Shown here: in pieces, positions 16,181-49,982 of the stretch
Layout of the letters: every line of letters starts with the position of its first letter
Numbering within the stretch: position 1 is the first letter of the stretch
Origin: Nanobdellati archaeon
GTDB lineage: Archaea; Nanobdellota; Nanobdellia; CSSed11-243R1
DNA length: 64,000 nucleotides
Reading direction: 5' to 3'
Assembly (NCBI GenBank): GCA_027007025.1
Contig: JALTFL010000004.1
Location: 4,773-68,772, forward strand
Program-made: the position numbers and the translations under genes
The notes under the pieces: model-generated
The model's input: the letters and a program-made list of their open reading frames with translations, nothing else
What the model was told of the DNA's origin: nothing
Databases searched by the model: none

Positions 16181-16294
16181 TGGGCCCGGGGGGATTCGAA
16201 CCCCTGGCCTCCTGGTTAAAAGCAACACCTTCAAATCCAATTTTATTAGAATGAATTTGAAACAGGCGCTCTGACCAGGCTGAGCTACGGGCCC
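16181..16294 (-). tRNA. tRNA-Lys (anticodon UUU) with a roughly 39-nt intron at a non-canonical position in the anticodon stem
   Basis: Minus strand reads GGGCCCG-TA-GCTC-AGCCTGGTCA-GAGC-G-CCTG[intron]G-CTTTTAA-CCAGG-AGGCC-AGGGG-TTCGAAT-CCCCC-CGGGCCC-A; acceptor stem 7 bp, canonical D-arm and T-loop; one A:C mismatch at the top of the T-stem. Confidence 0.6.
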
Positions 16295-16504: not shown

Positions 16505-17749
16505 CTAATTGTATTCAGGGTTAGTTACTCTGCCCATGAATAGAATTTCGCCCGTATTTTTGTCCTCGATTATAAACATGAATGGATGATTTGCCCTAAA
16601 AACAGGTTGATGCATCTGAACAGCTGTAATCCCAACCGATACTTCTGTCGCAGCTGCTGCTTCCGTTCCCTCTTCATTTACATCAATGTATGCTTGGTGG
16701 ATTACACTTTGTATTAACAATCCACCTTTCTTTGACATACCAGTTAAATCCGCACCATATGAAAATGGTGTTGGCATTCCCATTTCCTTCAAATCATTTG
16801 CCATAAAATATTTTGTTTCAAATTTAAACCTCGGCAGGTAAACCCTAACTTCCTCACTGTGAAGCTTGCTTGTCAAATCATTTATTTTTTCAACGCTCAA
16901 ACTGTTTTCAAAATCATCTAAACTTCTTGGCAAGAAAACAATCATCGACAAGTTTCCTTTATATGGCAGCTCTAAAACTTGCGTTTCATTTTTTTCATAG
17001 TATGGAAAATCTTCTTTTATATACATCATATCAACAGAAATGTTGCCATCTGGTGTGATAAAATCTTCTTTGTGGGTTGCATTTTTGTTAAACTGGTGGC
17101 TCCAGTTTCCCTTGAAGTAAATCGCATTCGTCAAGACAAGGCGCGTTGCGGAGTTTAGTACTCCTTTCGGAATCAAGTCCTTTATTTTTCCGTTTGTCTG
17201 CTGTTCAATCCAAGTGTTTATTATATTACGTGCAGATTCCTCATCCGCAAAATTTAGATTTGTAACTTTTCCGCCATAAAATTCTTCAATTATATCAAAG
17301 TAATGCTGTGAAAACGGAAAATCTTTCTGCGCCCAAAGGGCGTTTGCAGTTCGCAAGGTATAATTCTCATTTGGAGTGTTGAGTATGTTGTAAATATGCG
17401 CGAACGAAGTCCTCAGCTCGCTCGTATTTCCAGGAAAATAAAAGACATTTTTTATTTCCTTCGCAGTTCTTCCGCGGGCACCCTCATAAACCATAGCAAA
17501 AGCAGATGATATGCTGTATGGCGAAAAGAAAACATTCTGATTTTCAAACTCTGTTGAGTATTTCTTGTACAAATCAATTGCGAACTTGTTGTTTGCTTCC
17601 GCAACCGCATTGAATCCTTGCGAAGTCCAACCACTATCCTTTAAGATAATAGCGTCTTTTGAAGTGATATTCTTTGGAGTAGTTACGCAGCCAAACACAA
17701 TCGCAACAGCGAATATAACCACAATTCCCATCAAAAATTTCGAGTTCAT
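16505..17749 (-). CDS. Serpin (serine protease inhibitor), secreted with lipobox-like signal
   Basis: Hinge EEGTEAAAAT, C-terminal PFMFIIEDKNTGEILFMGRVTNP, N-terminal hydrophobic segment ending FGC. Confidence 0.85.
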   Translation of the reverse strand: MNSKFLMGIVVIFAVAIVFGCVTTPKNITSKDAIILKDSGWTSQGFNAVAEANNKFAIDLYKKYSTEFENQNVFFSPYSISSAFAMVYEGARGRTAKEIKNVFYFPGNTSELRTSFAHIYNILNTPNENYTLRTANALWAQKDFPFSQHYFDIIEEFYGGKVTNLNFADEESARNIINTWIEQQTNGKIKDLIPKGVLNSATRLVLTNAIYFKGNWSHQFNKNATHKEDFITPDGNISVDMMYIKEDFPYYEKNETQVLELPYKGNLSMIVFLPRSLDDFENSLSVEKINDLTSKLHSEEVRVYLPRFKFETKYFMANDLKEMGMPTPFSYGADLTGMSKKGGLLIQSVIHQAYIDVNEEGTEAAAATEVSVGITAVQMHQPVFRANHPFMFIIEDKNTGEILFMGRVTNPEYN

Positions 17750-18457: not shown

Positions 18458-19888
18458 TTACTCGACTTCTATCGCGAGCACGTTTGAGAATTCTTCAACC
18501 TTTTCTCCATTCGCATCCTTGAATTCTACTTTGGCAGGAGAGAACCCAATATGTCCTAAAACCTCAACAGAAGTCCTTATCTTATACGAAAGTACTCTTT
18601 CTTCCTTCGGTTTTATACTCTCAATTTCCCATGTTACATTTTTCTTCTTTCCTTTCTTCTTGATTTCGCCGGGTATTGTTCCATAATCCCTAACTTCCTT
18701 GACAAACGCTGGAAGAGGATCGTATACTTTTACGTGCCTTAACTCGTTGTTAGTCAAGTTCTTGACTTTTATCTGAATCTTCAAGTCCATGAATCCTGGG
18801 TATCTCTTGTAGTCTACAATCTCTTTTCTCACAGTAACTTTTCTAGTCATATACCAAAACGCTGCAATTACTGCAACAGCGGCAAAAGGAATTATGAGAA
18901 TTGGAATATAACTAATTGTATAAGTGACAACCACTTCCGATTGCGGGTTAACACTTAATTTCCAAATTATCTTTCCATTTTCAAAAGAATACCCTTCTGT
19001 CATGCTCGTCGCCAGTGATTTTTCTATCCCTGAAACAGAAGAAGAAACAACACAGTTTGCAACATCAGTTCCTGTGTTTCTTACATTTGCAACATACTTT
19101 TTCCCAAGTAAATTCACAGAAGTATGCTCATTAATTACACAGTTTGAATAACTTACAACGTTAGCAACAGCATTTCCCTTTGAAGTTACATTTCCTGCAA
19201 ATAATAAAGACACCGTAAATGTATGATTGCCTGGAGATGCAGATTCAGGAAGAGTTAAGTTATCTACTGTGATTGTAGTTGTTCCCTCGCTGATATTTTG
19301 ATTATCAACTCTATATGAAAATCCTTCAATATCAGATGTAATCTCCATTGGAACAACAACTGTCTCAACAGGGTTGTATACTTCAAAACTAATTGAAAAG
19401 GGATTCCGTGGATCCAACACCTGTGGATTAATTGTTACTTTATTTATGTTAACCGACTCAAATAATTTTGGAGACTTTAAGATTTCACCCTGCAAGTAAA
19501 TTGGAGGATTTAAGGAATTGCCTTTGTCATCAAAAACCAGCAGTTTAATAAGTATCTTTCCTGGCTTTTGGTCTGACTTGACTGTAAGTGCAACATGGAT
19601 CAGCTGCTCATCGCCAGGGTTTAACGTCAAAACGCTTGGTGTAATATCAGTCAATCCTGTGAAAAGAACATTCAAGCTTAGTTTAATTGGAGATGAACCA
19701 TCATTCCTTAGAGTAACATTATACTCTAATTTGTCTCCTGGCTTTGCCTTGTCGTTAATTACCCCAACACTGTATTTGATATTTGACAAATCGTCTGCCT
19801 TTGCGGCACTTAAAATGCTAAAAAACATTACTGCAAAAAGTAAAGATAACATTATTTTTTTGGATACCATGTGATAACTTAATTCCAA
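18458..19888 (-). CDS. Cell-surface protein: signal peptide, large extracellular region, C-proximal transmembrane anchor and lysine-rich cytoplasmic tail
   Basis: N-terminal hydrophobic signal, many N-x-S/T sequons, hydrophobic helix IPILIIPFAAVAVIAAFWYM followed by RK-rich segment. Confidence 0.6.
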   Translation of the reverse strand: MELSYHMVSKKIMLSLLFAVMFFSILSAAKADDLSNIKYSVGVINDKAKPGDKLEYNVTLRNDGSSPIKLSLNVLFTGLTDITPSVLTLNPGDEQLIHVALTVKSDQKPGKILIKLLVFDDKGNSLNPPIYLQGEILKSPKLFESVNINKVTINPQVLDPRNPFSISFEVYNPVETVVVPMEITSDIEGFSYRVDNQNISEGTTTITVDNLTLPESASPGNHTFTVSLLFAGNVTSKGNAVANVVSYSNCVINEHTSVNLLGKKYVANVRNTGTDVANCVVSSSVSGIEKSLATSMTEGYSFENGKIIWKLSVNPQSEVVVTYTISYIPILIIPFAAVAVIAAFWYMTRKVTVRKEIVDYKRYPGFMDLKIQIKVKNLTNNELRHVKVYDPLPAFVKEVRDYGTIPGEIKKKGKKKNVTWEIESIKPKEERVLSYKIRTSVEVLGHIGFSPAKVEFKDANGEKVEEFSNVLAIEVE

Positions 19889-21732: not shown

Positions 21733-22656
21733 TCACCTGGAGAATTCCTTCCTTAAGATATCAACTGAAAAATATATTAATATTGCCAGCAGAGTTGCCT
21801 TGCAAACTATAAAAAAAGTTGGGATTAAGTTCAAATCAACTTGACGAGGTATATGCCCTAAGGATACATCTATTCCGTTGCCGGATACACAAACTCTTGT
21901 GTACGTAACATTGTTATCATTACCCAAATTCACATACTTTACCCCTTCTTTTTCAAAAACAAAGTCTTTCTCATTTGATGAAATTACAAGAGTGACATTT
22001 TTCTCCCTGAATAAATAATCCAAGAGTTTCCCGTCTGGTGTTTCATACTTACTCTCTGACGGATTTATTATAGGATTATTCATTATTATTACTTTATTTT
22101 TAGCATTATCTGAAAGGGATTTATTCAACCAATTATACTGGTCTATATCAATGCTCCCCAAGCTGTTGTCTAATATAATAAACAATGAATTTGAAGTATT
22201 AAACGAAAAATAAGGATTACCAAAAATCGATTTAAACATTAAATCACTCCCATATGGGCTTTCGCTGCTGCCTATCCCAAAAATAGTAGGAACATCATAT
22301 CTCCTTGCGTTGTGAACAAATTGAGAATACTCTTCGATTATACCTTCGTCTATGAAGTTTCCATCTATCACAACAAATGAGGAATCACCACTTAAATTCA
22401 AAAAATGGTTGAATATATATATATCTCCGTTAATGTTGCCTATTACGGAAAAGCAATAGTTTGAATCATTTTTTATATCACTTATCTGATGATTATTCCA
22501 ATTGTTAGCCGGAGGGATATAACCTATTACAATAATACTCACAAGAATAGCTACAACAAGCACCATCATCCATTTATTTTCCATTTTCAGCAATATTCTA
22601 AATAAGGACACAAATTTAAAAGTTATGAAACTACTAAAAAAATCCTTTCTTTCCAA
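21733..22656 (-). CDS. Hypothetical membrane-anchored protein
   Basis: N-terminal and C-terminal hydrophobic helices, N-x-S/T sequons; no confident family assignment. Confidence 0.45.
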   Translation of the reverse strand: MERKDFFSSFITFKFVSLFRILLKMENKWMMVLVVAILVSIIVIGYIPPANNWNNHQISDIKNDSNYCFSVIGNINGDIYIFNHFLNLSGDSSFVVIDGNFIDEGIIEEYSQFVHNARRYDVPTIFGIGSSESPYGSDLMFKSIFGNPYFSFNTSNSLFIILDNSLGSIDIDQYNWLNKSLSDNAKNKVIIMNNPIINPSESKYETPDGKLLDYLFREKNVTLVISSNEKDFVFEKEGVKYVNLGNDNNVTYTRVCVSGNGIDVSLGHIPRQVDLNLIPTFFIVCKATLLAILIYFSVDILRKEFSR

Positions 22657-23417: not shown

Positions 23418-25562
23418 CTAAAAGTCATCAATCTTAGAATTTAAACTTTTCTTTGTTACTTGTCCCCTTATCTTTTCGGCAGTTTTTCTGCCGACAATAG
23501 ATGCAAGCTTCTCAATCGGCGCCTTCTTGACGTCAGCGAGAGTTTTTATGCCGGCGCGGTAAAGCTTCCTCGCCCTGACTCTCCCAACGCCCTTGAGAGC
23601 GAGAAGATTAAGTAATTCTTCCTTTGCGCCGTTCTTCATCCTCAGGCGCAGCTTGTTAAGCGGAAGAAGCAAGTCCTTTACTTTCATTATTCTCGCGAGC
23701 TCGTAAGCGGAGTAAAGCAGCCAATCCGAGATATAAATCCTGTTTCTCAATACTCCCGGCGTCTCCTTGTATTCTTCCAGAATGGACGCGTCCGTTTTCT
23801 CGTTTATCCAGTCAAATAGCATCAATGATGTCTTAAAGGCGCGCACCCATACTTCATAATCCAAATCCCATGGGCTCGGCTCCTCAATTTCATCCGAAAA
23901 GTCAAGGTATTTGTTTTGGAGCTCTGTGAATTCCCTCGGCGAAACCCTGAGCAAAGGAAACATCTCGTTGCACGAGCATATTGAGTGAATCCAGAACATC
24001 TCGTTTTTCCTTCCGGATTTTATTTTTTCTATCAGCAAGTGCGCGGACTCTGGGTCGATATACAGCTCGGCAACCCTCTTGCCAATTCGGGTTGGGAGCA
24101 ATTTTTCTTTGGTGGAAGAAACAAAACCATATTTCAGAAGCAGTCCAATCACCTTGTCAAGCTTGACTTCAATTTTTCCCATATCGGCGTACTGCTGGGC
24201 GAAAAACGTCTTCGAGAAAAATTTCAACAGATTTTTTCTGCTCGAAACTTCCCCGCTCGCAATCAGTCCCAAAACCTGCATCCTCAAAATCGGTTCCGCG
24301 GAAAGCTTGGAATAAATTTCCTCCGGATTTCCTTTTACATACTTTTCAAAAATTTCATCCTTTTCAATTTCGGAGCGCGCAATCATAATCGCCCTGCCTT
24401 CTCTGTCAAACTTCGGGCGTCCAGCGCGTCCAAACATCTGCTGAACTTCAAGCACGGGCAGCCAGTTGCTTCCGTAGTCAGGGGAATATCTTTTAAGGTC
24501 TCTGACGAGAACTGTGTGGCTTGGAAGATTTACCCCGAAAGCAAGAGTCGGTGTCGCGGATATCAGTTTTATCAGTCCTTTCTTGAAAGCGTCTTCAATC
24601 ATCCTTTGCTGCTTGCTAACAAGTCCGGCATGGTGAAAAGCCGTCCCGTGCTTAACACATTCACTCAAAATTTCGCATTGCCTCGTCGGCGACTCAAGAA
24701 CATGCAGAATGTCATAACTCAACTTTTCAAGCTTTTCTCTTTCTTCTTCCGTCAGATATTTGTCGACTATTTTTTTGGCGTTCTTAGCGACTGCCTCGGC
24801 GTTCCTTCTACTCGAAAGGAAAACAAGAATCTGCTTTTTCATCTCAAGAGTGTCTTTTATTATTTGGTGCTCCGGCAGTTTTGCCTCCGGAAGTTTTTTT
24901 ACCTTGTCCTCAAAGTAAAGTTTCCCGTCAAGGTAAACACCATACTCCAACTCCACAGGGCGATATGTGCTCCTCACAAGGCTGGCATTGAGCCATTCTG
25001 ACAGCTCATCCGCGTTCTGTATTGTCGCGGATAGGGCTATAAGCTGGGCGTCCTTGCAGAACTCCTTAAGTCTCGTTATCAACACTTCAAGGGTAGGTCC
25101 CCTATCGGGCTGGTCAAGCACGTGTATTTCATCTATAACTATAGTGTTTACTTCGCGCAGCCAAGGCACATTGTGCCTCATAAGGGAATCCAGCTTCTCG
25201 TTCGAGCACACAATTATATCTGCCTTTTGAAGCCACGGGTCGCTCGAGTCAAAGTCACCTATCGACAGCATAACATTTAGAAAAGGATATCTTTCCTTGA
25301 ACTCATTGTACTTCTCGGAAGCGAGAGACCTCAAGGGCGTCAGATAAATTGCCTTTCCGCCTTTTGTCAAAATATTGTTGACAATCGCAATCTCGGCGAC
25401 AAGAGTCTTACCGCTCGCGGTCGGGCTGGCTATAACTAAATTTTTGCCCTCAAGAAGTCCCTCGTTAATCGCAAGCTCCTGGGGGGGACGAAAACTTTCT
25501 ATGTCTTTTAATCTATCATAGAGTTCTTTCGGGAGTTTATGCTTTATGTGTATCGGCTTCAC
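23418..25562 (-). CDS. hel308: Ski2-like DNA helicase (Hel308/Hjm family)
   Basis: Walker A ASPTASGKT, DEIH box, C-terminal helix-hairpin-helix LLALKGVGRVRARKL. Confidence 0.8.
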   Translation of the reverse strand: MKPIHIKHKLPKELYDRLKDIESFRPPQELAINEGLLEGKNLVIASPTASGKTLVAEIAIVNNILTKGGKAIYLTPLRSLASEKYNEFKERYPFLNVMLSIGDFDSSDPWLQKADIIVCSNEKLDSLMRHNVPWLREVNTIVIDEIHVLDQPDRGPTLEVLITRLKEFCKDAQLIALSATIQNADELSEWLNASLVRSTYRPVELEYGVYLDGKLYFEDKVKKLPEAKLPEHQIIKDTLEMKKQILVFLSSRRNAEAVAKNAKKIVDKYLTEEEREKLEKLSYDILHVLESPTRQCEILSECVKHGTAFHHAGLVSKQQRMIEDAFKKGLIKLISATPTLAFGVNLPSHTVLVRDLKRYSPDYGSNWLPVLEVQQMFGRAGRPKFDREGRAIMIARSEIEKDEIFEKYVKGNPEEIYSKLSAEPILRMQVLGLIASGEVSSRKNLLKFFSKTFFAQQYADMGKIEVKLDKVIGLLLKYGFVSSTKEKLLPTRIGKRVAELYIDPESAHLLIEKIKSGRKNEMFWIHSICSCNEMFPLLRVSPREFTELQNKYLDFSDEIEEPSPWDLDYEVWVRAFKTSLMLFDWINEKTDASILEEYKETPGVLRNRIYISDWLLYSAYELARIMKVKDLLLPLNKLRLRMKNGAKEELLNLLALKGVGRVRARKLYRAGIKTLADVKKAPIEKLASIVGRKTAEKIRGQVTKKSLNSKIDDF

Positions 25563-26832: not shown

Positions 26833-28092
26833 ATGGTAAGTTTTTTAATTAACAACTTGTTAAAAAATAACATGAAATCTAACTTAAAAATGGCAAAAAA
26901 AGCACAATATGCCGCAACAATTATTTTGATTGGTATGGCTGCGTTGTTTGTAATTTATACAATTTTAGCTTATCCAGAGGAAAAAGCAAGAATTCTCAAT
27001 ATAACTATTCCCAATGAAACAAATATATCTACTTCCCCTCTCGGAGAAGGAACAAGTTTAATATTCAGCAGCGGGGAAATAAGTGAAATCGGAAGGTCAT
27101 CTGGGGAAACTGTGTTCTCTTTCGGAATGCCAAATGCTTACGTAGCATACCCTGTTGATGAAAAAATTATAGATGATAGTAATATCTCCCTAAGAGCATC
27201 TGTACTAAAAGGGAGCATATCTTATTTTTCAGCAGATAATATAAACCTAGAAAACACAAAAGATGTGTTGATAAAATTAAATATAACTCAATTAAGCGGC
27301 AATCCAAAACTAATTGTGTTTCTTAACGGCTCAAGCATATTTGAGAATACCATCACAAACACAGGCGAAATAAACATTCGCGTGTCAAAAACACTGCTTG
27401 GCGAAAATAATCCCATTACATTGAAAGTCGAGCACAATGGCGCGTTTTGGACTACAAACACTCTAAATGCAAATGTCAAAATTGTACAGGAATATTACAA
27501 CCCTATCAATGTAATAGATGAAAAATATATATCTCTTGGACAAACAAATATAAAAGGAAATGAATTAAGCATATCTTTCATGCCAACTAAAGCCATTAGC
27601 GATGGAGATTTAATCGTCAAGGTCAACGGGAAAATTATATTCTCCGGAAAGGTAGAGGAAGGAAAAATATTCACCATAACCCAGAGATTTGATGAAAGCA
27701 ATATTAAGGTTGGAGATAATACAATAACATTCGAAGCAGACAAAGGCGGAGTGTATAATCTAACAAATGTCAAATTTGAATTTGTTGCAGTTACCACACC
27801 CGCAACCAACAAAATTTATTCCTTTGACATCCCAAATAAGTATTTAACATCTCAAAACGAGATTATACTTGGATTAAAAGTCGACAAGATTATAAAACCA
27901 GGATATATCTATGCAAAACTAGGAGACAAAGGACCTATTTATTACTTTGAAGACAGCGACCTCGCTTCGGGTGCGTGGTCCTATGCTGTTCTTGACAAAA
28001 CATACCTCAAAGAATTGGGGAACAAGCTTATAGTTGATTCTCCAAATGGAAGATATAGGTTAACAGGATTAGTGATAATCGCGAAGGAGTAG
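26833..28092 (+). CDS. Membrane-anchored extracellular protein (N-terminal TM, glycosylation sequon-rich)
   Basis: Hydrophobic anchor AATIILIGMAALFVIYTILA followed by many N-x-S/T sites. Confidence 0.5.
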   Translation: MVSFLINNLLKNNMKSNLKMAKKAQYAATIILIGMAALFVIYTILAYPEEKARILNITIPNETNISTSPLGEGTSLIFSSGEISEIGRSSGETVFSFGMPNAYVAYPVDEKIIDDSNISLRASVLKGSISYFSADNINLENTKDVLIKLNITQLSGNPKLIVFLNGSSIFENTITNTGEINIRVSKTLLGENNPITLKVEHNGAFWTTNTLNANVKIVQEYYNPINVIDEKYISLGQTNIKGNELSISFMPTKAISDGDLIVKVNGKIIFSGKVEEGKIFTITQRFDESNIKVGDNTITFEADKGGVYNLTNVKFEFVAVTTPATNKIYSFDIPNKYLTSQNEIILGLKVDKIIKPGYIYAKLGDKGPIYYFEDSDLASGAWSYAVLDKTYLKELGNKLIVDSPNGRYRLTGLVIIAKE

Positions 28093-28121
28093 AAGTATTA
28101 ATTTAAATTTTTTGTATACTT

Positions 28122-29756
28122 ATGAATATAAAGTCATCTCTTGCCATATTAACCACCTGGATAAAAGAAAATGGAGCAAAAGAAGAAATTTTAATAAGTC
28201 AATTAATTGACAATCAAGGCACAGTTAAAGAAGTTAAGGATGCAGCAAGATTTCTAAAAGAATATATCAACAATTTAGTAAATGCAGCTAATATTGTTTG
28301 TAAAGAAATAAAATTAAATAAAACCGCCAAAGTAAAAAAAGTTTATATAAATACAATAGAAGGTGAGTATGCATACTTCAATATAATAACTGGGAAGTTG
28401 TCTCTAAATATATACTTATTATATGAAGGATTATTATCAAAAGGACTATTTTTTATCCCATTTACAATATTCCATGAGATTGGACATTCTCTCCAAAAAG
28501 AGTTATTAAAAACAATAGAATCCACCAAAGGATACTCAGAAAAGGCAGTAAAATTACGAAAAGATGAGCTCGAGAACACATATAGGATAATCATAAGTAA
28601 TTTTAATGGGTTATACGAAATATTTGGGACTATTTTCCATAAATTACCTGAAGACAGCAGGCAATCAAGCCAAATAAAAGAAATCATTTCCTTAATTGTT
28701 GAGGATGTAAAATATTTTGAAGAAACTATGAATAATATGAATTATATATTCCCCGATATAAAAGGATTGAATCAAATAAAAAAAATTATCAATGAAATGA
28801 TAAAAACATTAGATTCAATTAAGGATTACTTAAATGAGGTAATTGATACAAACAATTTATCTGACATCCAAAAGATAAAAGGCAGAATTAACAAATATTT
28901 CACTGCGCTGCACATATACATAAATACATTTTATAACATCATCTCAGACAGAGAATTTATCGAATTGATGTATGCAATATCATTTTCAAACATATTGCTA
29001 GACTCATATGCCGACTTCTTTGCGATAGTCGCCCTCTCAGAATTATTCAGAGGAGAACCGATAGGCCAATTTTATTTAAGGTTTAGTCAATACAAAAAAT
29101 ACACAAGCAAAGCGTATCCACTTAGAGCTCTTATTTTATATGATAATCCCTCATTTATCAAAAAAGAATTAATCACTACTTTATCTATTGGGATAACGTC
29201 TAAAAAAATTGGACAGATATACAGAAAATTGCTAAAGTTAGAAGGATATCTTAAAAAGTACAGTAAATTAACAGAAGAAGAAAAGAATGTATTGGAGGAA
29301 GATTTTGGAAAATTTTTAAATGAATTGGACAAAGATAAGAATTACATTGTAAATTCACTGGAAGAAATTACAAATATAATTTTTGAATATTACAACAAGT
29401 TAATAAGCTCACTCGAAGGAAAGCACATAGGATTCACTAACTTGAGTAGTGTACATCACAGAATTCTTAGCGAGATAAGTTCTCTAAAAGCTTCAAAAGG
29501 AATATCTAATGAAAGCATTAAAAGAATAATGATTGAATTATTAAATGCAGATGAAGTTGCAGGAAACATTTTTGAATCAATTGAAAAACATGAAAGTAAA
29601 GAAAAAGTCAATGAAATATTATCAAAATTTGGGGCTGTGGATGCAGATTACAACAAGTATATCAACAAACTAAAAGATGTTTATCATAAAATTGATAAGA
29701 TGGATATAAATAGATTAATCAAGGAAATTAACATTCTTAAAAACATTGTTGAATAA
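28122..29756 (+). CDS. Hypothetical protein with HEIGH (HExxH) zinc-metallopeptidase-like motif
   Basis: FHEIGHSLQKE motif; remainder is helical and low-complexity; no signal peptide seen. Confidence 0.45.
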   Translation: MNIKSSLAILTTWIKENGAKEEILISQLIDNQGTVKEVKDAARFLKEYINNLVNAANIVCKEIKLNKTAKVKKVYINTIEGEYAYFNIITGKLSLNIYLLYEGLLSKGLFFIPFTIFHEIGHSLQKELLKTIESTKGYSEKAVKLRKDELENTYRIIISNFNGLYEIFGTIFHKLPEDSRQSSQIKEIISLIVEDVKYFEETMNNMNYIFPDIKGLNQIKKIINEMIKTLDSIKDYLNEVIDTNNLSDIQKIKGRINKYFTALHIYINTFYNIISDREFIELMYAISFSNILLDSYADFFAIVALSELFRGEPIGQFYLRFSQYKKYTSKAYPLRALILYDNPSFIKKELITTLSIGITSKKIGQIYRKLLKLEGYLKKYSKLTEEEKNVLEEDFGKFLNELDKDKNYIVNSLEEITNIIFEYYNKLISSLEGKHIGFTNLSSVHHRILSEISSLKASKGISNESIKRIMIELLNADEVAGNIFESIEKHESKEKVNEILSKFGAVDADYNKYINKLKDVYHKIDKMDINRLIKEINILKNIVE

Positions 29757-29795
29757 AACTTTTTAAATCAAAACAACCTTTAATTTTCGGTATAA

Positions 29796-31349
29796 ATGGG
29801 ATTAGGAAGAGATTTAATTGGCGGAGGAAAAGGAATTACCCCTAAAAAGAATGACAATGCAAATAAAGAAATAAAAGAGGAAGCCGAAAAAGTTTTTTTA
29901 AATAATGAAGGCGGAAACCATCCAAACGTCAGTATGAGTGGATCAGAAATAATAAGATCCTCCGGTGCAATAATGTTCTTCATAGGTATCGCATTGGGAT
30001 TCTTTTTTGGATTACAATTTCTTGCAATAGCAATATTAGGTATAATTTTATTCATAATAGCCCCTTACATTCACATACCAAGTGGCGAAGCACTAATAAC
30101 AATATTCATAATTGGGGGAGTTGTATTAATAGGTGTTGTTTGGTTTTTTGGTGTCGGCGGCGGACAGGCAACCGCAGGAATGGGGAATAGAGTAGGTGAA
30201 AGCTTTAGTGGATTATTCAACAACTATTTATTTAGAAGTATTGGAAATATGTTAAAGAATCCATTTGGAATAGGTGTAACTGGCGGTAAATATGAAGAAC
30301 AAGAGCAAAAAACAAAAGCCCCTCCAAACCAAGCATTTTCAATTAGCATAAGAGGTAATGTAAATACTGCTAAGATGAATCAACATTCATTGACATTTAT
30401 AGTAACTATCAAAAATCTCGGGAGTAGTAAGATAAATGAATTACATCTTCAATTGAATTCCTTGACACCATATGACAATTGCTTAGTAATCCCTGATGGA
30501 AATGAACGAATAATAAAAAATATAGCTCCATTCTCAACAAGAGAAGTTGTATTCTCCGGCGGATGGATTGATTTGAATAAAGTCAAAGAAGTGATTATAG
30601 ATAATGTGTTAAAACCAAATACAAACACACCGATTTATATACGTGCAACAGCGTGGACATATTATCCAACAGCATCTAGATTAGCAGTAGAAAGAATGAA
30701 AAGCGATTTTGGAGTCTTGTTGATAAAAAATAATGCCCTCAGGCAAAAATCAACAGGAGCTATCTATAAATATGGTTCTGCAATGACGATTGACATGGAC
30801 ATAGGCCCACAACCAATCCTTGATAATTCCAATTCTGCTGCATTATTGTTAAAATGGCAAAATGTTGGCAATGGAAATATGAAATCAAATATGTCCCCCA
30901 TGTTATTTATTGTCACTCCAAAAGATTTCGGAAAGTGTATACCTGCAGGGTATATAGCTTACAAAGATGCAGAAAATTTACAATGTGACAAGACAAAAGA
31001 TAGCGCGGCAGGGTGTATCGTCTGCGACAACGAATTAGTTAACAGTTGGTGTGATAAAAATAGTAAAGTATGGACAGATATATCTAAATACACACCAGAC
31101 GCACTTTCCACATTAGAGTGGGTGTGTGATGTAGCTAAAAATGGTGAAAAACACGTCTGTGGCACAACTGATTTAACTATGGAATTTAATGTATTCACTT
31201 GCAGTTTAAATGTGCCTAAGATAAGCACAACGGAAGATATTGTTACAGATTATATAACAACTATAGCCACATATCCTTATGAAGTTAACTCTCAAACTGT
31301 AAAAGTTAATACGTTCTGCACAAGTGACCAAACAGGGTGTGGTGGATAA
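29796..31349 (+). CDS. Polytopic membrane protein with Cys-rich extracellular C-terminal domain
   Basis: Several hydrophobic helices in the first 130 aa; about 10 Cys in the C-terminal 120 aa. Confidence 0.5.
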   Translation: MGLGRDLIGGGKGITPKKNDNANKEIKEEAEKVFLNNEGGNHPNVSMSGSEIIRSSGAIMFFIGIALGFFFGLQFLAIAILGIILFIIAPYIHIPSGEALITIFIIGGVVLIGVVWFFGVGGGQATAGMGNRVGESFSGLFNNYLFRSIGNMLKNPFGIGVTGGKYEEQEQKTKAPPNQAFSISIRGNVNTAKMNQHSLTFIVTIKNLGSSKINELHLQLNSLTPYDNCLVIPDGNERIIKNIAPFSTREVVFSGGWIDLNKVKEVIIDNVLKPNTNTPIYIRATAWTYYPTASRLAVERMKSDFGVLLIKNNALRQKSTGAIYKYGSAMTIDMDIGPQPILDNSNSAALLLKWQNVGNGNMKSNMSPMLFIVTPKDFGKCIPAGYIAYKDAENLQCDKTKDSAAGCIVCDNELVNSWCDKNSKVWTDISKYTPDALSTLEWVCDVAKNGEKHVCGTTDLTMEFNVFTCSLNVPKISTTEDIVTDYITTIATYPYEVNSQTVKVNTFCTSDQTGCGG

Positions 31350-32527
31350 TGATGAAACATAAAGAATGGATATTGATTGTATTATTGTTTTTATTAGTCG
31401 TTTCTTTCGGATGTGTTGGCGAATCCAAACCAACAAATGAAACAAAGTTAGATGTGGAACAAGGAGTTGGTGTCGTTGGTAAGCTTAAATTTGACGAATT
31501 GCACCCCGGACTTGAAGGGTATATATCATTGGATGTAAGAAGCAACCTCGAAGGTGAAGGTGCTGGCAACGTTTTAATTGCGATAGATAATGTGAACCCC
31601 TTTAAAATAGTTGAATGTGGAGTAGTGCATAACAATGCAAATGACAATAGAAAATGTTCAGGACAACTTGACTTAGACAAAGGATTACCTGTAAGGGAAC
31701 ACAAAACAAGGCAACTTGTTCCTGGAAATGAAATAAATGTATTTTGGAGATTGAAAGCTCCAGGAAAAGATGAAATCTCTAATATCGCACTAAAACATCC
31801 ATTATATTATACTGTGTCATATGATTATAACGTAAAATTCCACCAAAACATTGTCTTTATGTCGCAAAATGAAATGATTAAGCGGAGACAAGCCGGTGAG
31901 GATTACATGATTTCAGGAGAATCAGGAAACACAGCAGGTGAGTTGAGATTTTCCGGCTCAACACAACAACCTATTATTTACTTCTTTGATTATGGTCCGC
32001 ATGAAAAAGAAGAATCTACTTTTTCATTCGCTACTCAATACCTCGTCGAAAACAAAGGAAAAGGATTTCCAATATCTGATGTTGTAGTCTTATTGGAATA
32101 CCCAAAAGATGGTATAGCTTTAGATGATAGTACACCTGAAGGAACACCAAACTATCAAGTCTATGGATGGCACAAATGGAATAATTGGGACGGTAAGATT
32201 TTATTGGATGATGGAAGTAGTATTGATTGCAGAACGGGCGATGAAAACAATCCACAAATAAACTGTAAGATATGGGTTGAGCAAACATTGGGAGATGACT
32301 TTAAAAAAATTGATACTACACATCTAATTGCAAAAGTCATTAAGAGAGAAAATTTTGTGGATTCATTTTCAATATACGCTCCATTTGTTATGACAGGTAA
32401 GGAAAGAACACACTTAAGGGATAGTAATATCCCCATGAAGATATACCCATTCAATGTCTATGCGATGTATAGATATTTCACAATTGGAAAAGATTATATT
32501 ACAGTATACCCTGTTAGGGGGATATAG
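31337..32527 (+). CDS. Secreted lipobox protein
   Basis: N-terminus LIVLLFLLVVSFGCVGES. Confidence 0.5.
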   Translation: MWWIMMKHKEWILIVLLFLLVVSFGCVGESKPTNETKLDVEQGVGVVGKLKFDELHPGLEGYISLDVRSNLEGEGAGNVLIAIDNVNPFKIVECGVVHNNANDNRKCSGQLDLDKGLPVREHKTRQLVPGNEINVFWRLKAPGKDEISNIALKHPLYYTVSYDYNVKFHQNIVFMSQNEMIKRRQAGEDYMISGESGNTAGELRFSGSTQQPIIYFFDYGPHEKEESTFSFATQYLVENKGKGFPISDVVVLLEYPKDGIALDDSTPEGTPNYQVYGWHKWNNWDGKILLDDGSSIDCRTGDENNPQINCKIWVEQTLGDDFKKIDTTHLIAKVIKRENFVDSFSIYAPFVMTGKERTHLRDSNIPMKIYPFNVYAMYRYFTIGKDYITVYPVRGI

Positions 32528-32540
32528 GAGGTAAGATAAA

Positions 32541-33398
32541 ATGAAAAAGGAAGGATTAATTATTTTAATTGCACTGTTTGCATTAGCATTCACATTTGGA
32601 TGTACAATGGGTGGTGAAAAGTCAAATAACACCAACACCGGCAATGGATATACCCTGAAAGTAAGTCCAAAAAATGTAATCTCGGAGGGAGTAATTACAA
32701 TAGATTTGAGATTAAAGAATATATTTGACAACGACATGAATAATGTCGAAGCAAGTATAAAGGATATACCTTCAACTTTCACGGGCACAGAAAAGGTAGA
32801 AGGTGTTACAATTGTAAAAGGTCAAGAATATCCGATGATATGGAGTATAACTGCACCAAGTACGGATTTAAAACAAAGCATAAATCCGAAAGTGGAAGTT
32901 TGCTTTGATTACACAACTAACTTTTATTTTGATACAGCATTAGTGCCAAGGGACAAGGCAACAGAAGAAGTTCAGGTGCAAAGCGGGTATTCGAACGGAC
33001 CTATCTCAGTAACACAAATGGGACTTGACAAAATATTCCTTAAAGAGGATGGAACTGGATTTATAACAGGTTCACTGGATATCAAAAATAACTGGCAGGG
33101 GCATATACAATCAATTAATAAAATAACAATAACCCCAAGTGGATTGACAGGCGGCATCAAATACGCAAGCTGTGGAGGGGACACCGTAACAACAATAACC
33201 CCAAGTACAGCAAACTGTGATATATTAAATAATAATTTGGCAATTGGAGATGGATTGATAACAACAATCAAATTAAGCACGACATCAGGCGGAAGCAGTA
33301 TATCCACTGAAAGGACAAATGGAGAAGTTGATTACACCTACTGTTATGATATACCATTAGGAACAATAACTGTCTGTCCTGTAGGACAAAGATGTTAG
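32541..33398 (+). CDS. Secreted lipobox protein, paralogue of 33408..34349
   Basis: N-terminus ALFALAFTFGCTMGG; shared CFDYTT...VP.D block with the downstream gene. Confidence 0.55.
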   Translation: MKKEGLIILIALFALAFTFGCTMGGEKSNNTNTGNGYTLKVSPKNVISEGVITIDLRLKNIFDNDMNNVEASIKDIPSTFTGTEKVEGVTIVKGQEYPMIWSITAPSTDLKQSINPKVEVCFDYTTNFYFDTALVPRDKATEEVQVQSGYSNGPISVTQMGLDKIFLKEDGTGFITGSLDIKNNWQGHIQSINKITITPSGLTGGIKYASCGGDTVTTITPSTANCDILNNNLAIGDGLITTIKLSTTSGGSSISTERTNGEVDYTYCYDIPLGTITVCPVGQRC

Positions 33399-33407
33399 GT
33401 GGATTAA

Positions 33408-34349
33408 ATGAATAAAAAAATTTTGTTTGCATTTTCTTTATTGTTTTTGTTAGCTCTCTCTCTTGGGTGTATAGGAGGAAATAAAAATAGTAATAACAAC
33501 GCCCAAGCTACAAGCGGAACATTAAATGCTACAATATTGATAAACGGTGTTCAAAGGAATAATATGGTACTAGTGTCTGAACAAAACGCACAAATTGGAT
33601 TAAAACTCAAGAACAATGGAAATGAACCAATTGAAAATGTTACTGGGCGTGTTCTCGGATGTCTTAATTCAAGCGATGCATTTACCGAAGAAGTTTTGCC
33701 ACATACTCAAAAGTATCTAAGCTGGGATGTTAAAGCCCCAGAACTTGGAGAAGGCGAGAAAATAAACTGTCCGACTACAATAAGAATCTGCTTTGATTAC
33801 ACCACGAAAGGATACACCGATTTGGTATTTGTACCCGAAGATTATAATGAAGCCCCCCCTTCACCAAGCTACACTGTTTCGGGCGACTACCTTGGTATAA
33901 ATTATAAATTTGGAGTCGCAAGAGTTATGAAACAAGGAGATAATGAGATGAATGGAGAGATAACAATTAATAACATAGGCGATGGATGGGTAGATTATAT
34001 AAATTACACGAATGGAGTGTCTTTGAATACACTAAGAAAAGTAAATATAACCCTTATAGGGGATAACATTGCAATATCCAAATTCGGTGGATTGGATCAA
34101 AGTGAATTAAGTAATTGGTTGAGCAACGACAAAAAAACACTAATACTCACAGCGGACAACACAAAAGAGGGGTATAGTTATCTTACAAAACTTGTGCAGG
34201 GCAAAAGTTTATTCTTGAAACTCAACATAAATGTAACCAACCCAAACAGCTTCCAAGATGGAACAAAGATATACCAGCTTAGAACAGAAATAAATTATGG
34301 TTATTGTATTGACATAGCAACATTAGACACAACATTGAGTGGAAGGTAA
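33408..34349 (+). CDS. Secreted lipobox protein, paralogue of 32541..33398
   Basis: N-terminus LLFLLALSLGCIGGN; ICFDYTTKGYTDLVFVPED block. Confidence 0.55.
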   Translation: MNKKILFAFSLLFLLALSLGCIGGNKNSNNNAQATSGTLNATILINGVQRNNMVLVSEQNAQIGLKLKNNGNEPIENVTGRVLGCLNSSDAFTEEVLPHTQKYLSWDVKAPELGEGEKINCPTTIRICFDYTTKGYTDLVFVPEDYNEAPPSPSYTVSGDYLGINYKFGVARVMKQGDNEMNGEITINNIGDGWVDYINYTNGVSLNTLRKVNITLIGDNIAISKFGGLDQSELSNWLSNDKKTLILTADNTKEGYSYLTKLVQGKSLFLKLNINVTNPNSFQDGTKIYQLRTEINYGYCIDIATLDTTLSGR

Positions 34350-45742: not shown

Positions 45743-46501
45743 ATGAATAAAAAAATATTTTTGGCAATTGCATTTGTAGCAGTCATATTTGTATTTGGAT
45801 GTGTAGGTGCAAAGAAGATTCCATTAAGAGAAAATAAGTCTAATATGGTGGTTGGTAACAACACTGCGAATGTTGTTGTAAATACACCTGTTGTCAAGGA
45901 TATAGATATAAATTATTTCACATTCCACCCGAACATACTAAAAATTTCTCCTGGAACAACCGTTGTCTGGAAGAACCAGGACGATGATGTTATTTATGAA
46001 GTCGTAAGCGGACACATTGAAGGATACAAGGAATTCCAAACAAATTTGTTTGACAGCGGAGAAATGGGTTATGGGAACAGCTTCAATTACACTTTTGACA
46101 AAGAAGGAGATTACCCATTCTACCTGAAAGGACATGTCAACATACAGGGGATTATAATTGTCGGAAATGGAAATGACACCCCAATTGAAATAAGAAGTCC
46201 TCATTTTGTCGGCTCGACGCCTCCACACAACAAAACACTTGATTCCCTCAATGAGATTTGGATAACATTCAACGCACAGATAAGCAATCAAAGCACAATC
46301 ACGGTGTATGATGTTAAAAACCACAAAATCGTTGAGCCAACTGAAAGCGGAGTTGATATATCCAATAACTTGAGGTTATTCGCAAAGTTTAATTCTCTTG
46401 AACCGTCCGAATACAAAGTGGAATATTATGAAGTAATAGGCAATGAGAGGGCGTATGGGCAGTTTTTCTTCGACATTGCGAAAAATTTAAAAACAGATTA
46501 G
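45743..46501 (+). CDS. Secreted lipobox protein with cupredoxin-like beta-sandwich region
   Basis: N-terminus AVIFVFGCVGAKK; TFHPNILKISPGTTVVW...GHVNIQGIIIV resembles a cupredoxin fold but has no Cys ligand. Confidence 0.4.
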   Translation: MNKKIFLAIAFVAVIFVFGCVGAKKIPLRENKSNMVVGNNTANVVVNTPVVKDIDINYFTFHPNILKISPGTTVVWKNQDDDVIYEVVSGHIEGYKEFQTNLFDSGEMGYGNSFNYTFDKEGDYPFYLKGHVNIQGIIIVGNGNDTPIEIRSPHFVGSTPPHNKTLDSLNEIWITFNAQISNQSTITVYDVKNHKIVEPTESGVDISNNLRLFAKFNSLEPSEYKVEYYEVIGNERAYGQFFFDIAKNLKTD

Positions 46502-48737: not shown

Positions 48738-49982
48738 ATGGAAGAAACAAATGTTCAAGAAATTGAAACTTATCCTTTGGTTGTGTTTAATTACGGTGGG
48801 AATGAAATAAAATTCGCGGAAGCCACGATATGTAATAATTCCAATGAATTAAAATATTGTGTAAATGAAATCGAACTTGAGGAACATGAAAGCGATATTT
48901 ACTATGAAATCCTAAAACGAATAAAAAAAATTGACAAGGAAAAAAACCTAAGAAAGTTAAGTCAACAAGATGCGTTCAGGTTCATAGACTATAAAATAAA
49001 AGAAACTTGTCATGAGATGAGAGAAGATATTTCCACTCAAGAGAAGACAAGGATAAAATATTTTCTATATAAAAATTACTTTGGATTCGGAGAAATTGAG
49101 CCATTGTTTTATGACAAGGACGTAAAATATATTTTCTGCGAGCGTCCTGGATTGCCGATTTACATTTTTCACAAAAATCCAAGATATGGATTTATGAAAA
49201 CAAACATCGTACTGAGGAGCATAAGAGAATACAAACTGATATCTGAAAATCTCAAATTGAAATCTAAAAAGCTGAGAGAATCTCCTGATTTCTTTGGCAT
49301 ATTGGAGGACAAACAAGTGGTTGAAGTGAGTGATTCTCATAGAGAATTTAGCATAACCCGCTTCTCAAAAATGCCGACATCCCCAAGAGATATGGTAAAA
49401 CTAAAACTAATTCGGAGGGATGTTTTGGTGTATCTATATAGGATAATCAAAAATAGAGGTTCTGTGCTTATCATTGGAGGAAACTCATCCCAAAGAATTC
49501 AATTAGCTAATTCATTGGCTCTCCTTACCGACAAAAAACTGAAAGCAGTCATCTTTGAAAAAACACCCAGTATCATCCTGCCACACAATGACGCATACTA
49601 CAAAGTGCTTCCGCTTTATGAAAAAAAACATAAACACGTGATAAAAGAATACTTGAGGAAAAATCCAGAGCTAGTAATCTCAGCAGAGATTGAAACAAAC
49701 AAGCAAACAATAAAAAACATAAAACATAAGTGTCAAACATTCATAACTATTGAAGCAAACGATTTGGACAATGCAATTAAAATACTTAACAATGAAGTAC
49801 CTGCACCGTGGATATCCTACATAGATGTCATAGTAAAAATAAAGGAATCAATTGGATGGCCACGTGTAGACGAAATTTATGAAATTACAGCATATGACGC
49901 CCAGTCAAAAATGCTTATGATATCTCCAATTTTTTACAACAATGTTTTGAGAAAAAGCAAATTACTTAGCCAGCAAAGTTAA
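48738..49982 (+). CDS. Secretion-ATPase-like protein (FlaI/VirB11/TadA-like layout) with degenerate P-loop
   Basis: VLIIGGNSSQRIQLANSLALL...KAVIFEKTPSIILPHND occupies the position and spacing of Walker A plus the IEDT box, but the GxxGSGKT residues are replaced. Confidence 0.4.
   Translation: MEETNVQEIETYPLVVFNYGGNEIKFAEATICNNSNELKYCVNEIELEEHESDIYYEILKRIKKIDKEKNLRKLSQQDAFRFIDYKIKETCHEMREDISTQEKTRIKYFLYKNYFGFGEIEPLFYDKDVKYIFCERPGLPIYIFHKNPRYGFMKTNIVLRSIREYKLISENLKLKSKKLRESPDFFGILEDKQVVEVSDSHREFSITRFSKMPTSPRDMVKLKLIRRDVLVYLYRIIKNRGSVLIIGGNSSQRIQLANSLALLTDKKLKAVIFEKTPSIILPHNDAYYKVLPLYEKKHKHVIKEYLRKNPELVISAEIETNKQTIKNIKHKCQTFITIEANDLDNAIKILNNEVPAPWISYIDVIVKIKESIGWPRVDEIYEITAYDAQSKMLMISPIFYNNVLRKSKLLSQQS

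What the first reader, a model, noticed from the sequence alone, without database searches (positions are those of the whole stretch)
26833..34349. Six-gene co-directional block of secreted, lipobox and membrane proteins with an HExxH protein
Six tightly packed plus-strand genes (spacers 0-40 nt, one 13-nt overlap): a TM-anchored glycoprotein-like protein, a 544-aa protein with HEIGH motif, a polytopic membrane protein with a Cys-rich ectodomain, and three consecutive proteins whose signal sequences end in L/F-G-C, two of which are clear paralogues sharing a CFDYTT block. None has an obvious characterised homologue by eye. This may be a lineage-specific cell-surface or host-interaction module.
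Basis: partly seen in the sequence, partly recalled or inferred. Interest (0 to 1): 0.65.

Follow-up and report, generated by a model that had tools for sequence, protein, structure and literature searches.

The report
Conserved nanoarchaeal surface-protein operon
Five of the six genes form an uncharacterised operon, conserved across the tiny symbiotic Nanoarchaeota, that encodes membrane- and lipid-tethered surface proteins, probably a sugar-binding or adhesion complex; the sixth, "protease-like" HExxH gene is a strain-specific insertion.

Summary
The six plus-strand genes are real. None has a Pfam, NCBIfam, PHROG, PADLOC or PDB sequence match. Only five form a unit. The order g1-g3-g4-g5-g6 is collinear in all 13 loci that span the whole block, and the truncated contigs are consistent with it. 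This holds down to g1 relatives at about 20% identity, usually between Hel308 and the PAC2-Nop10-aIF2alpha genes. It is therefore an old, vertically inherited module of Nanoarchaeota/Woesearchaeota-labelled DPANN archaea, not a narrow lineage-specific one.

- **g1:** an N-terminal membrane helix behind a prepilin-like KK[GA]Q motif, then three CBM-like jelly-roll domains (pLDDT 93).
- **g4, g5, g6:** paralogues with an almost invariant lipobox, Cys at residue 21 in the window copies. The g4 model shows Ig/CARDB-like beta-sandwiches.
- **g3:** its ectodomain is a fourth, remote paralogue with a TM anchor and a strain-variable Cys-rich insert.
- **g2 (HEIGH):** no TM segment or signal peptide, GC 27.5%, absent from all but one relative. 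Its only detectable relative lacks the motif.

Best reading: a hetero-oligomeric, membrane-tethered lectin/adhesin-type envelope complex. The anatomy is well supported. The function is inferred.

The parts
26872..28092 (+). g1: signal-anchored surface protein. Short basic N-terminus (KMAKKAQ), one TM helix, a flexible linker, then three tandem jelly-roll (CBM-like) beta-sandwich domains. The ORF can be read from 26833, but the conserved start is 26872 or 26890.
28122..29756 (+). g2: 544-aa helical K/E/N/I-rich protein with HEIGH (codons 28473-28487) and no TM segment or signal peptide. A variable accessory insertion, not part of the conserved core.
   Evidence: Only self-hits in 5.8 billion proteins. 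Absent from L003, L004, L008, L014, L016, L017, L020, L021 and the distant loci. 33% identity over 150 C-terminal residues to a 597-aa protein in the same slot of L009, which has no HExxH in the printed translation. GC 27.5%, and HExxH appears in 1.25% of shuffles. No hydrophobic span. No PDB, PHROG, PADLOC, phage or IMG/VR hit.
29796..31349 (+). g3: membrane-anchored protein. Variable Gly/Lys-rich cytoplasmic N-tail, about 3 TM spans here (1 in some orthologues), a conserved VGGGQA junction, and a roughly 400-aa ectodomain that is a remote paralogue of g4-g6 and carries a Cys-rich variable insert.
   Evidence: TM spans, 11 Cys. Orthologue alignment. hhalign g3 ectodomain vs g5/g6 family: probability 81%, E 1.2e-5; vs g4: E 0.0046.
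30322..30667 (+). Strain-variable patch 1 in g3 (about residues 175-290), with indels. It also marks the boundary between a 99.7%-identical and a 97.9%-identical segment versus a sister strain.
   Evidence: g3 has 37 substitutions plus an 18-residue length difference, while g1, g2 and Hel308 are identical.
31068..31267 (+). Strain-variable patch 2 in g3, in the Cys-rich region (about residues 424-490): 32 mismatches in 200 nt versus the sister strain.
   Evidence: The insert just upstream (about residues 390-420) is the most length-variable part of the orthologue alignment (columns about 440-520).
31352..32527 (+). g4: lipobox protein (VSFGC, Cys21 at 31412-31414). Two beta-sandwich (Ig/CARDB-like) regions joined by long strands. 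The most conserved of the three lipoproteins.
32541..33398 (+). g5: lipobox protein (FTFGC, Cys21 at 32601-32603), paralogue of g4 and g6. Cys in the CFDYTT strand and in the C-terminal Y-x-Y-C strand.
33408..34349 (+). g6: lipobox protein (LSLGC, Cys21 at 33468-33470), paralogue of g4 and g5. Six N-glycosylation sequons. Its stop abuts the stop of the convergent PAC2 gene.

Best explanation
g1, g3, g4, g5 and g6 form one operon. It is vertically inherited across Nanoarchaeota (DPANN). It encodes a multi-subunit protein complex held on the outer face of the cytoplasmic membrane.

Shown:
- All five proteins have export or anchor signals. g1 has a short basic N-terminus plus one TM helix. g3 has an odd number of TM spans with its ectodomain outside. 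g4, g5 and g6 each have a signal peptide ending in a conserved lipobox Cys.
- The g1 ectodomain is three tandem jelly-roll sandwiches of the carbohydrate-binding-module type.
- g4 is built of Ig/CARDB-like beta-sandwiches. g5, g6 and the g3 ectodomain are its paralogues.
- The five genes keep their order and tight spacing across very deep divergence.

Inferred:
- g4-g6 are thioether-lipidated at Cys21 and the signal peptide is removed, as for other archaeal lipoproteins.
- The four paralogous ectodomains assemble into a hetero-oligomeric platform tethered by three lipid anchors and the g3 TM anchor.
- g1, on its flexible linker, supplies a lectin-like glycan-binding function. The target would be glycosylated surface layers of the partner or host cell, or the cell's own envelope.
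- The variable Cys-rich insert of g3 is the exposed, fast-evolving tip.

g2 (HEIGH) is a strain-specific gene with no export signal, inserted between g1 and g3. It is not a component and is probably not a metalloprotease.
For: - Synteny: the same gene order in 13 loci that span the full block and in the remaining, truncated contigs, including g1 relatives at 20-29% identity (L010, L011, L012, L027, L028). The block usually lies between Hel308 and PAC2-Nop10-aIF2alpha.
- Operon-type junctions: 2-13 nt gaps here, and zero-gap or 4-nt-overlap junctions in relatives.
- Lipobox: a PROSITE PS51257-type pattern in 47 of 48 and 26 of 27 members, with Cys21 in the three window copies. Archaeal lipoproteins and the AliA lipidation enzyme are reported for DPANN (PMC12462473).
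- Paralogy.
- Folds: g1 model pLDDT 93 with CBM/BcsB/PNGase F/GH2 sugar-binding-type jelly rolls. g4 model pLDDT 80 with Ig/MG/CARDB-type sandwiches.
- Topology: hydropathy.
- Surface exposure: strain-level differences are concentrated in the g3 ectodomain. N-glycosylation sequons are enriched in g1 and g6.
- g2 is not part of the unit.
- A lectin-like protein with an N-terminal TM helix is also predicted among the surface proteins of cultivated Nanobdella aerobiophila (preprint 10.1101/2023.10.27.564410).
Against: - There is no experimental or annotation link to any function.
- Complex formation is inferred only from co-conservation and paralogy. No multimer model was run.
- Stable single-copy synteny next to housekeeping genes, and fairly high conservation of g1 and g4, fit a general envelope role at least as well as host-specific adhesion.
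- Lipidation and signal cleavage are untested.
- Presence in cultivated Nanoarchaeota was not established.
Confidence: 0.5

Rival explanations
1. Envelope architecture rather than adhesion. The five proteins are a housekeeping scaffold of the nanoarchaeal cell envelope, for example anchoring or spacing the S-layer above the membrane or organising the pseudo-periplasm. The jelly-roll domains would bind the cell's own glycans.
For: - Single-copy, deeply conserved, fixed position among information-processing genes.
- g1 and g4 are well conserved, at 64-77% identity to close relatives.
- Lipid and TM anchors place all parts at the membrane surface.
- The S-layer candidates proposed for Nanobdella are different proteins, about 1000 aa with Ig-like folds, so an anchoring partner is still unassigned.
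Against: - No similarity to known S-layer anchors. SlaB-type coiled coils and PGF-CTERM were not seen in the sequences read.
- The strain-variable g3 insert suggests outward exposure.
- No expression data.
Confidence: 0.25
2. Type-IV-filament-dependent structure. g1 is a class III (prepilin-type) signal-peptide protein, cleaved after KK[G/A] by a prepilin peptidase. A TFF machinery encoded elsewhere inserts it into a short pilus- or bindosome-like stalk, with g3-g6 as accessory or base components.
For: - [KR][GAS]Q directly precedes the hydrophobic helix in 64 of 90 g1-family members. KKGQ and KKAQ are invariant in close relatives.
- Class III signal peptides on non-pilin surface proteins, and bindosomes, are documented in archaea. 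TFF systems occur in some DPANN (preprint 10.64898/2026.04.22.720090).
Against: - No hit to the Pfam or NCBIfam class III signal or archaeal pilin N-terminal models.
- No TFF ATPase, platform protein or prepilin peptidase in this 64-kb window or next to the module in the relatives whose flanks were annotated.
- In the model the helix is joined to the globular part by a low-confidence linker rather than packing against it as in pilins.
- In some members the K-x-Q lies up to about 9 residues from the hydrophobic core.
Confidence: 0.13
3. Host-membrane contact machine. The module is the apparatus that opens or maintains the membrane contact or cytoplasmic bridge to the host, or extracts host lipids, with g3-g6 acting like fusogen or pore subunits.
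For: - No genes have been assigned to the nanoarchaeal attachment organelle (PMC11420986).
- The module is conserved in a host-dependent lineage.
Against: - No fusion-loop or three-domain class II architecture was shown.
- No viral structural similarity (TM-score below 0.2).
Confidence: 0.07
4. All six genes, including a secreted or membrane-associated HExxH metalloprotease, work together as a lineage-specific host-interaction module.
For: - The HEIGH motif sits in a zincin-like context (TIFHEIGHSL) and occurs in only 1.25% of shuffles.
- g2 is co-directional and tightly spaced.
- A weak relative occupies the same slot in L009.
Against: - g2 has no TM segment or signal peptide.
- No peptidase family match.
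- No homologue in 5.8 billion proteins beyond identical copies.
- It is absent from the block in all but one relative.
- The L009 relative shares only the C-terminal 150 residues, and its printed translation has no HExxH.
- Its GC content (27.5% vs about 35%) suggests a separate origin.
Confidence: 0.03

Closest known systems
Archaeal lipobox lipoproteins (AliA-dependent, thioether-linked archaeol; Hong et al. 2025, PMC12462473)
   Same: g4, g5 and g6 have a basic n-region, a hydrophobic h-region and a conserved x-[F/L/M]-G-C lipobox with Cys at +1. The Cys is followed by I/T-G-G, as I recall for Thermococcales lipoproteins (from memory). AliA is reported to be present in DPANN.
   Different: Position -2 is bulky (F/L/M) rather than A/S/T. 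The mature domains belong to no described lipoprotein family. Lipidation was not tested, and AliA was not looked for in this genome.
Carbohydrate-binding-module / galactose-binding-like jelly rolls (BcsB CBD, PNGase F, GH2 sugar-binding domain, CBM6/35/36)
   Different: Identity is only 7-16%. There is no catalytic partner domain. Three tandem copies hang on an N-terminal membrane helix. Ligand-binding residues are not identifiable.
CARDB / DUF11 / macroglobulin-type Ig-like beta-sandwich surface domains (e.g. Pyrococcus PF1109 CARDB, PDB 3idu)
   Different: No Pfam CARDB or DUF11 match. The two-domain arrangement, with strands of about 24 residues and a C-terminal strand pairing back, is not that of any listed hit.
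Bacteroidota SusE/SusF-type surface glycan-binding lipoproteins (functional analogy only, from general knowledge)
   Same: An operon-encoded set of lipid-anchored proteins made of tandem Ig-like/CBM-like beta-sandwiches, acting together at the cell surface.
   Different: No transporter or glycoside hydrolase is in the locus. The setting is an archaeal single membrane. There is no sequence relationship.
Class III signal-peptide surface proteins of archaea (pilins, Sulfolobus bindosome binding proteins)
   Same: The g1 family has a short basic N-terminus with [KR][GA]Q immediately before a helix of about 22 hydrophobic residues.
   Different: It fails the HMMs for that motif. No TFF genes are nearby. 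The globular part does not pack on the helix in the model.
Lectin-like surface protein MJ1_0179 of Nanobdella aerobiophila (preprint 10.1101/2023.10.27.564410)
   Same: It is described as an N-terminal TM helix plus a lectin-type beta-sandwich in a cultivated nanoarchaeon. The general design matches g1.
   Different: MJ1_0179 is described with one lectin domain plus one Ig-like fold, not three jelly rolls.

Membership tests
Zincin metalloprotease (for g2) | HExxH zinc-binding motif | tested here: met
   HEIGH at residues 118-122. The motif arises in 1.25% of composition-preserving shuffles.
Zincin metalloprotease (for g2) | Motif conserved in homologues | tested here: not met
   The only detectable relative (L009, 597 aa) aligns over the C-terminal 150 residues only. 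Its printed translation has no HExxH. No other homologue was found.
Zincin metalloprotease (for g2) | Match to a peptidase family profile or a solved peptidase | tested here: not met
   No peptidase family in Pfam or NCBIfam at E up to 1. PDB hits are only catenin-like helices at E of 0.075 or worse.
Zincin metalloprotease (for g2) | Third zinc ligand and zincin fold | not tested
Prokaryotic lipoprotein (lipobox) signal (g4, g5, g6) | n-region, h-region and lipobox ending in Cys (PROSITE PS51257-type pattern) | tested here: met
   47 of 48 locus-derived and 26 of 27 database members match. The exceptions are FCLGC and an N-terminally truncated fragment. Cys21 in the three window copies.
Prokaryotic lipoprotein (lipobox) signal (g4, g5, g6) | Canonical small residue (A/S/T) at -2 | tested here: not met
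   Position -2 is F, L or M in nearly all members. This is within the PROSITE pattern but outside the strict [A/S/T/V/I] consensus quoted in PMC12462473.
Prokaryotic lipoprotein (lipobox) signal (g4, g5, g6) | Actual lipidation, and presence of the lipidation enzyme (AliA) in the genome | not testable with these tools
   Only 64 kb of the genome was available and no AliA-like gene was seen in it. The biochemistry needs experiments.
Class III (prepilin-type) signal peptide / type IV pilin-like (g1) | Short charged N-terminus, [KR][GA] cleavage site, hydrophobic helix directly after | tested here: inconclusive
   [KR][GAS]Q before the helix in 64 of 90 members, with variable spacing in the rest.
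Class III (prepilin-type) signal peptide / type IV pilin-like (g1) | Match to the curated Pfam and NCBIfam models for class III signal peptides and archaeal pilin/flagellin N-termini (accessions PF04021, PF07790 and TIGR02537 recalled from memory) | tested here: not met
   No such hit for g1 at E up to 1 or for ten distant members at E up to 0.01.
Class III (prepilin-type) signal peptide / type IV pilin-like (g1) | Genomic association with a TFF ATPase, platform protein or prepilin peptidase | tested here: not met
   None in the window or beside the module in the loci whose flanks were annotated. Elsewhere in the genome was not testable.
Carbohydrate-binding module (g1) | Beta-jelly-roll fold | tested here: met
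Carbohydrate-binding module (g1) | Sequence membership in a CBM family, and sugar binding | tested here: not met
   Only sub-threshold Pfam hints (BPA_C E 0.014, CBM-like E 0.046). Binding itself is not testable here.
CARDB / Ig-like surface domain (g4-g6, g3) | Ig-like beta-sandwich fold | tested here: met
CARDB / Ig-like surface domain (g4-g6, g3) | Pfam CARDB or DUF11 profile match | tested here: not met
   No match for g3-g6.
Class II fusogen / fusexin (Fsx1, HAP2) | Three-domain class II architecture with fusion loops and a trimeric ectodomain | tested here: inconclusive
Viral or mobile-element structural proteins | Similarity to phage or virus protein families or folds | tested here: not met
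   No PHROG hit for any of the six. BFVD Foldseek TM-scores at or below 0.21 for g4. g2 has no phage or IMG/VR relative.

The most novel reading that the evidence does not exclude
The five-gene module is the conserved core of the nanoarchaeal host-contact apparatus. It would be the machinery that recognises host surface glycans (g1) and builds or opens the membrane contact, bridge or lipid-uptake site (g3-g6). No genes have yet been assigned to that structure.
Probability: 0.1. Interest if true: 0.9.

Novelty: new variant of a known kind. Interest (0 to 1): 0.55.

Why it matters
Nanoarchaeota and other DPANN archaea have genomes of about 0.5 Mb and depend on physical contact with a host. The proteins that build their envelope and contact sites are almost entirely unassigned. 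Cryo-ET papers describe attachment organelles without naming genes (PMC11420986).

A five-gene block of exported proteins that a genome this small keeps in the same order and place across very deep divergence is likely to do something central at the cell surface. This work gives a concrete, bounded candidate set:
- one lectin-like, signal-anchored protein;
- four paralogous Ig-like proteins, three of them lipoproteins.

It also supplies alignments and profiles that can be used to look for the module in cultivated strains, and clear biochemical tests. The block adds a well-conserved example of lipobox proteins in DPANN. Finally, it shows that the eye-catching HExxH gene is a red herring.

Tried and rejected
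**Searches that found nothing**
- Pfam, NCBIfam, PHROGs and PADLOC scans of the proteins.
- Profile searches of the PDB with g1, g3 and g4-6 alignments, and with g2 alone.
- Viral fold search for g4: no meaningful match.
- g2 against phage genomes and IMG/VR: no match.
- Literature searches: no description of this cluster.

**Searches that failed or were limited**
- One database search with g1 and g3 joined into a single query was swamped by hydrophobic and low-complexity words. It returned only two g3 proteins, which wasted the last word-indexed search.
- afdb50 was not available.
- One cluster member could not be looked up.

**Readings rejected**
- The first hhalign of g3 vs g4 with five sequences was not significant (E 0.19). 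It became significant only with deeper alignments.
- g1 shows no profile similarity to g3 or g4.
- An integrated-virus or mobile-element origin for the core is contradicted by the stable synteny and the absence of viral hits.


Full report
**Where the window comes from.** The window is identical to contig WALP01000002.1 of MAG GCA_015522785.1. Its gene content is archaeal and almost entirely information-processing:
- split RNA polymerase B, A' and A'';
- EF-2, EF-1alpha, aIF2alpha, Nop10, S27e and L44e;
- GINS, primase, PCNA, RFC and MCM;
- fibrillarin and Hel308.

The closest relatives of the block's proteins are labelled Nanoarchaeota archaeon, with Woesearchaeota and Parvarchaeota labels on more distant ones. 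A sister-strain scaffold is 528 kb long, which fits a DPANN-sized genome.

**The observation.** All six + strand ORFs are present.
- Spacers are 29, 39, 2, 13 and 9 nt.
- The reported 13-nt overlap needs the GTG at 31337. The annotated ATG at 31352 follows the g3 stop by 2 nt and has a GGTGG-type Shine-Dalgarno tract.
- g1 most likely starts at 26872 or 26890, because orthologues begin ...KMAKKAQ.
- None of the six has a Pfam or NCBIfam match at threshold.
- Hydropathy gives one TM span in g1, none in g2, about three in g3, and only an N-terminal h-region in g4-g6.

**Five genes, not six.** A profile of g4/g5/g6 found 27 proteins. Their contigs show g1-g3-g4-g5-g6 with no g2:
- L003 (GCA_021162365.1) has genes of 405, 467, 384, 289 and 312 aa.
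- L004 (GCA_024277205.1) has 405, 549, 396, 292 and 318 aa.
- Scans of species-representative genomes and of JGI metagenomes added 14 loci.
- HMM labelling of their ORFs gives the same order wherever the contig is long enough. L018 has one extra lipoprotein paralogue.

g2 is different in every respect:
- It has only identical copies among 5.8 billion proteins.
- Apart from strain-mates, it has one weak relative: 33% identity over the last 150 residues (E 1e-6) to a 597-aa protein in L009. That protein sits in the same g1/g3 slot with three more small genes, and its printed translation has no HExxH.
- g2 has the lowest GC in the region (27.5%), no export signal and no family, PDB, phage or IMG/VR match.
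- HExxH turns up in 1.25% of shuffles of its own composition. That is unremarkable for one motif noticed among the many ORFs of the window.

**How deep the module goes.** A full HMMER search of 1.84 billion representatives with g1 found 208 clusters at E up to 1e-3. Most are 385-410 aa. Some are about 560 aa with a Cys-rich insert. Those that carry names are hypothetical proteins of Nanoarchaeota or Woesearchaeota MAGs, and none has a Pfam domain.

The contigs of five distant members (20-29% identity to g1) again show g1, a g3-like protein of 575-770 aa, and three further proteins, most with lipobox-type N-termini (L027's fourth gene is the exception). In four of the five the block abuts PAC2 or lies one gene away from it, and Hel308 lies upstream in three.
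- HMMs confirm four of the five families in L010 (the middle lipoprotein matched only under the looser cut-off), all five in L011 and L028, four of five in L012, and three in the most distant locus, L027.
- Small TM proteins or extra domains are sometimes added.
- g4 orthologues grow to 854 and 1322 aa in L010 and L028.

**Anatomy of the parts.**

*g4, g5 and g6* are paralogues along their length.
- Their signal peptides end in x-[F/L/M]-G-C. The PROSITE-type lipobox pattern is met by 47 of 48 and 26 of 27 members.
- Cys is residue 21 in the three window copies.
- Archaeal lipoproteins carry thioether-linked archaeol. The AliA enzyme family is reported in DPANN (PMC12462473).
- The AF2 model of g4 (27-sequence alignment, pLDDT 79.7, pTM 0.74) shows beta-sandwich domains linked by two strands of about 24 residues.
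- g5 and g6 have Cys in the CFDYTT strand and in the C-terminal Y-x-Y-C strand. This is consistent with a disulphide between the two long strands. That is my inference from the alignment and the g4 model.

*g3.* With deeper alignments, the g3 ectodomain is a remote paralogue of the lipoproteins. hhalign gives probability 81% and E 1.2e-5 against the g5/6 family, and E 0.0046 against g4. For comparison, g4 against g5/6 gives E 1e-9.
- The g3 anchor varies. There is one TM in L003, L004 and L009, about three here and in L008, and more in L010 and L011 (plus zinc ribbons in L011).
- The TM domain is therefore an anchor and not an enzyme or channel.

*g1.* The model is confident (90-sequence alignment, pLDDT 93.1). 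It has a 24-residue helix, a short helix, a low-confidence linker and three beta-sandwich domains.
- The family N-terminus is distinctive. [KR][GAS]Q lies directly before the helix in 64 of 90 members. P-x-E-R-x-x-L-L follows it in 58 of 90.
- This resembles a class III (prepilin) signal. However, the curated HMMs do not match, and no type IV filament genes are nearby.

**Variation between strains.** Against the sister strain (L024), g1, g2 and Hel308 are identical at the protein level. g4-g6 differ by 3-4 residues each. g3 differs by 37 substitutions and an 18-residue length change.
- The differences are concentrated in window 30322-30667 and 31068-31267.
- The first patch coincides with a switch from 99.7% to 97.9% DNA identity. 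Recombination or assembly mosaicism may therefore contribute.
- The second patch lies in the Cys-rich region, just downstream of the insert that is most length-variable among orthologues.

**Interpretation.** The shown facts are these:
- five exported, membrane-tethered proteins;
- four of them paralogous Ig-like proteins, and one a triple CBM-like protein;
- tight operon-like spacing;
- very deep conservation of order and position.

From this I infer a hetero-oligomeric surface complex. The lipoproteins and g3 form the membrane-proximal platform. g1 contributes lectin-like binding. The g3 insert is the exposed variable part.

**Comparison with the literature.**
- Cryo-ET work on Nanobdellota describes an attachment organelle without assigning genes (PMC11420986).
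- The survey of Nanobdella aerobiophila surface proteins proposes S-layer candidates of about 1000 aa with Ig-like folds. It also proposes a lectin-like protein with an N-terminal TM helix. That design resembles g1, but homology could not be tested here.
- I found no paper that describes this cluster.

**Verdict.** This is a real, uncharacterised and deeply conserved five-gene envelope operon of Nanoarchaeota, built from known fold types in an arrangement that has not been described. The HExxH gene is an unrelated insertion. The function is inferred and not shown.

Noticed in passing
window 16505-17749 (-): A full-length serpin (Pfam Serpin E 1e-124, 414 aa, 8 N-glycosylation sequons) in a very small archaeal genome.
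   Followed up: no
window 16181-16294 (-): Rfam finds a tRNA spanning 114 nt for a 71-position model, but ARAGORN finds no tRNA anywhere in the window. It is probably an intron-containing archaeal tRNA.
   Followed up: no
window 18458-19888 (-): A 476-aa protein with DUF11/CLIPPER-type Ig-like domains and 7 sequons. It is a second candidate surface protein, about 7 kb upstream of the block.
   Followed up: no
window 23418-25562 (-): The Hel308 helicase gene has GC 45.5% and GC3 53%, against about 35% and 30% for its neighbours. It is a marked compositional outlier.
   Followed up: no
window 45743-46501 (+): A 252-aa protein with a plastocyanin/azurin-type copper-binding domain (E 2e-5). This is unexpected in a genome otherwise dominated by information-processing genes.
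   Followed up: no
L009 1601-4960: The g1/g3 junction is a variable slot. In this Parvarchaeota-labelled MAG it holds four genes: 597 aa (weakly g2-like at the C-terminus), 198 aa, 106 aa, and a 144-aa basic TM protein with a weak DUF2207_C hit. L010 has a similar 108-aa TM protein there.
   Followed up: partly
P0077, P0088, P0110 (g1 family, about 560 aa): A subfamily of g1 homologues carries a duplicated Cys-rich insert (CG-x-x-DG-x-CP-x-x-C...D-x-DCC...YWC) before the last jelly-roll domain.
   Followed up: no
L010 13304-15868; L028 12586-16554; L018 118-4070: The lipoprotein set is plastic at depth. g4 orthologues are expanded to 854 and 1322 aa, and one locus has four instead of three lipoprotein paralogues.
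   Followed up: partly
window 34349/34350: The g6 stop codon and the stop codon of the convergent PAC2 gene abut with no spacer. Any terminators for both genes would have to lie inside the opposite gene.
   Followed up: no
window 21733-22656 (-), 48738-49982 (+), 61113-62573 (-): Further sizeable ORFs (307, 414 and 486 aa) with no Pfam match at the cut-offs used (E up to 1e-3 for the first, 1e-4 for the other two).
   Followed up: no
L004, L005 and L011, between g6 and PAC2: Some relatives have a gene with the MJ0043_C domain (PF27218) inserted between the module and PAC2. L012 has SecD/SecF directly upstream of g1 instead of Hel308.
   Followed up: no
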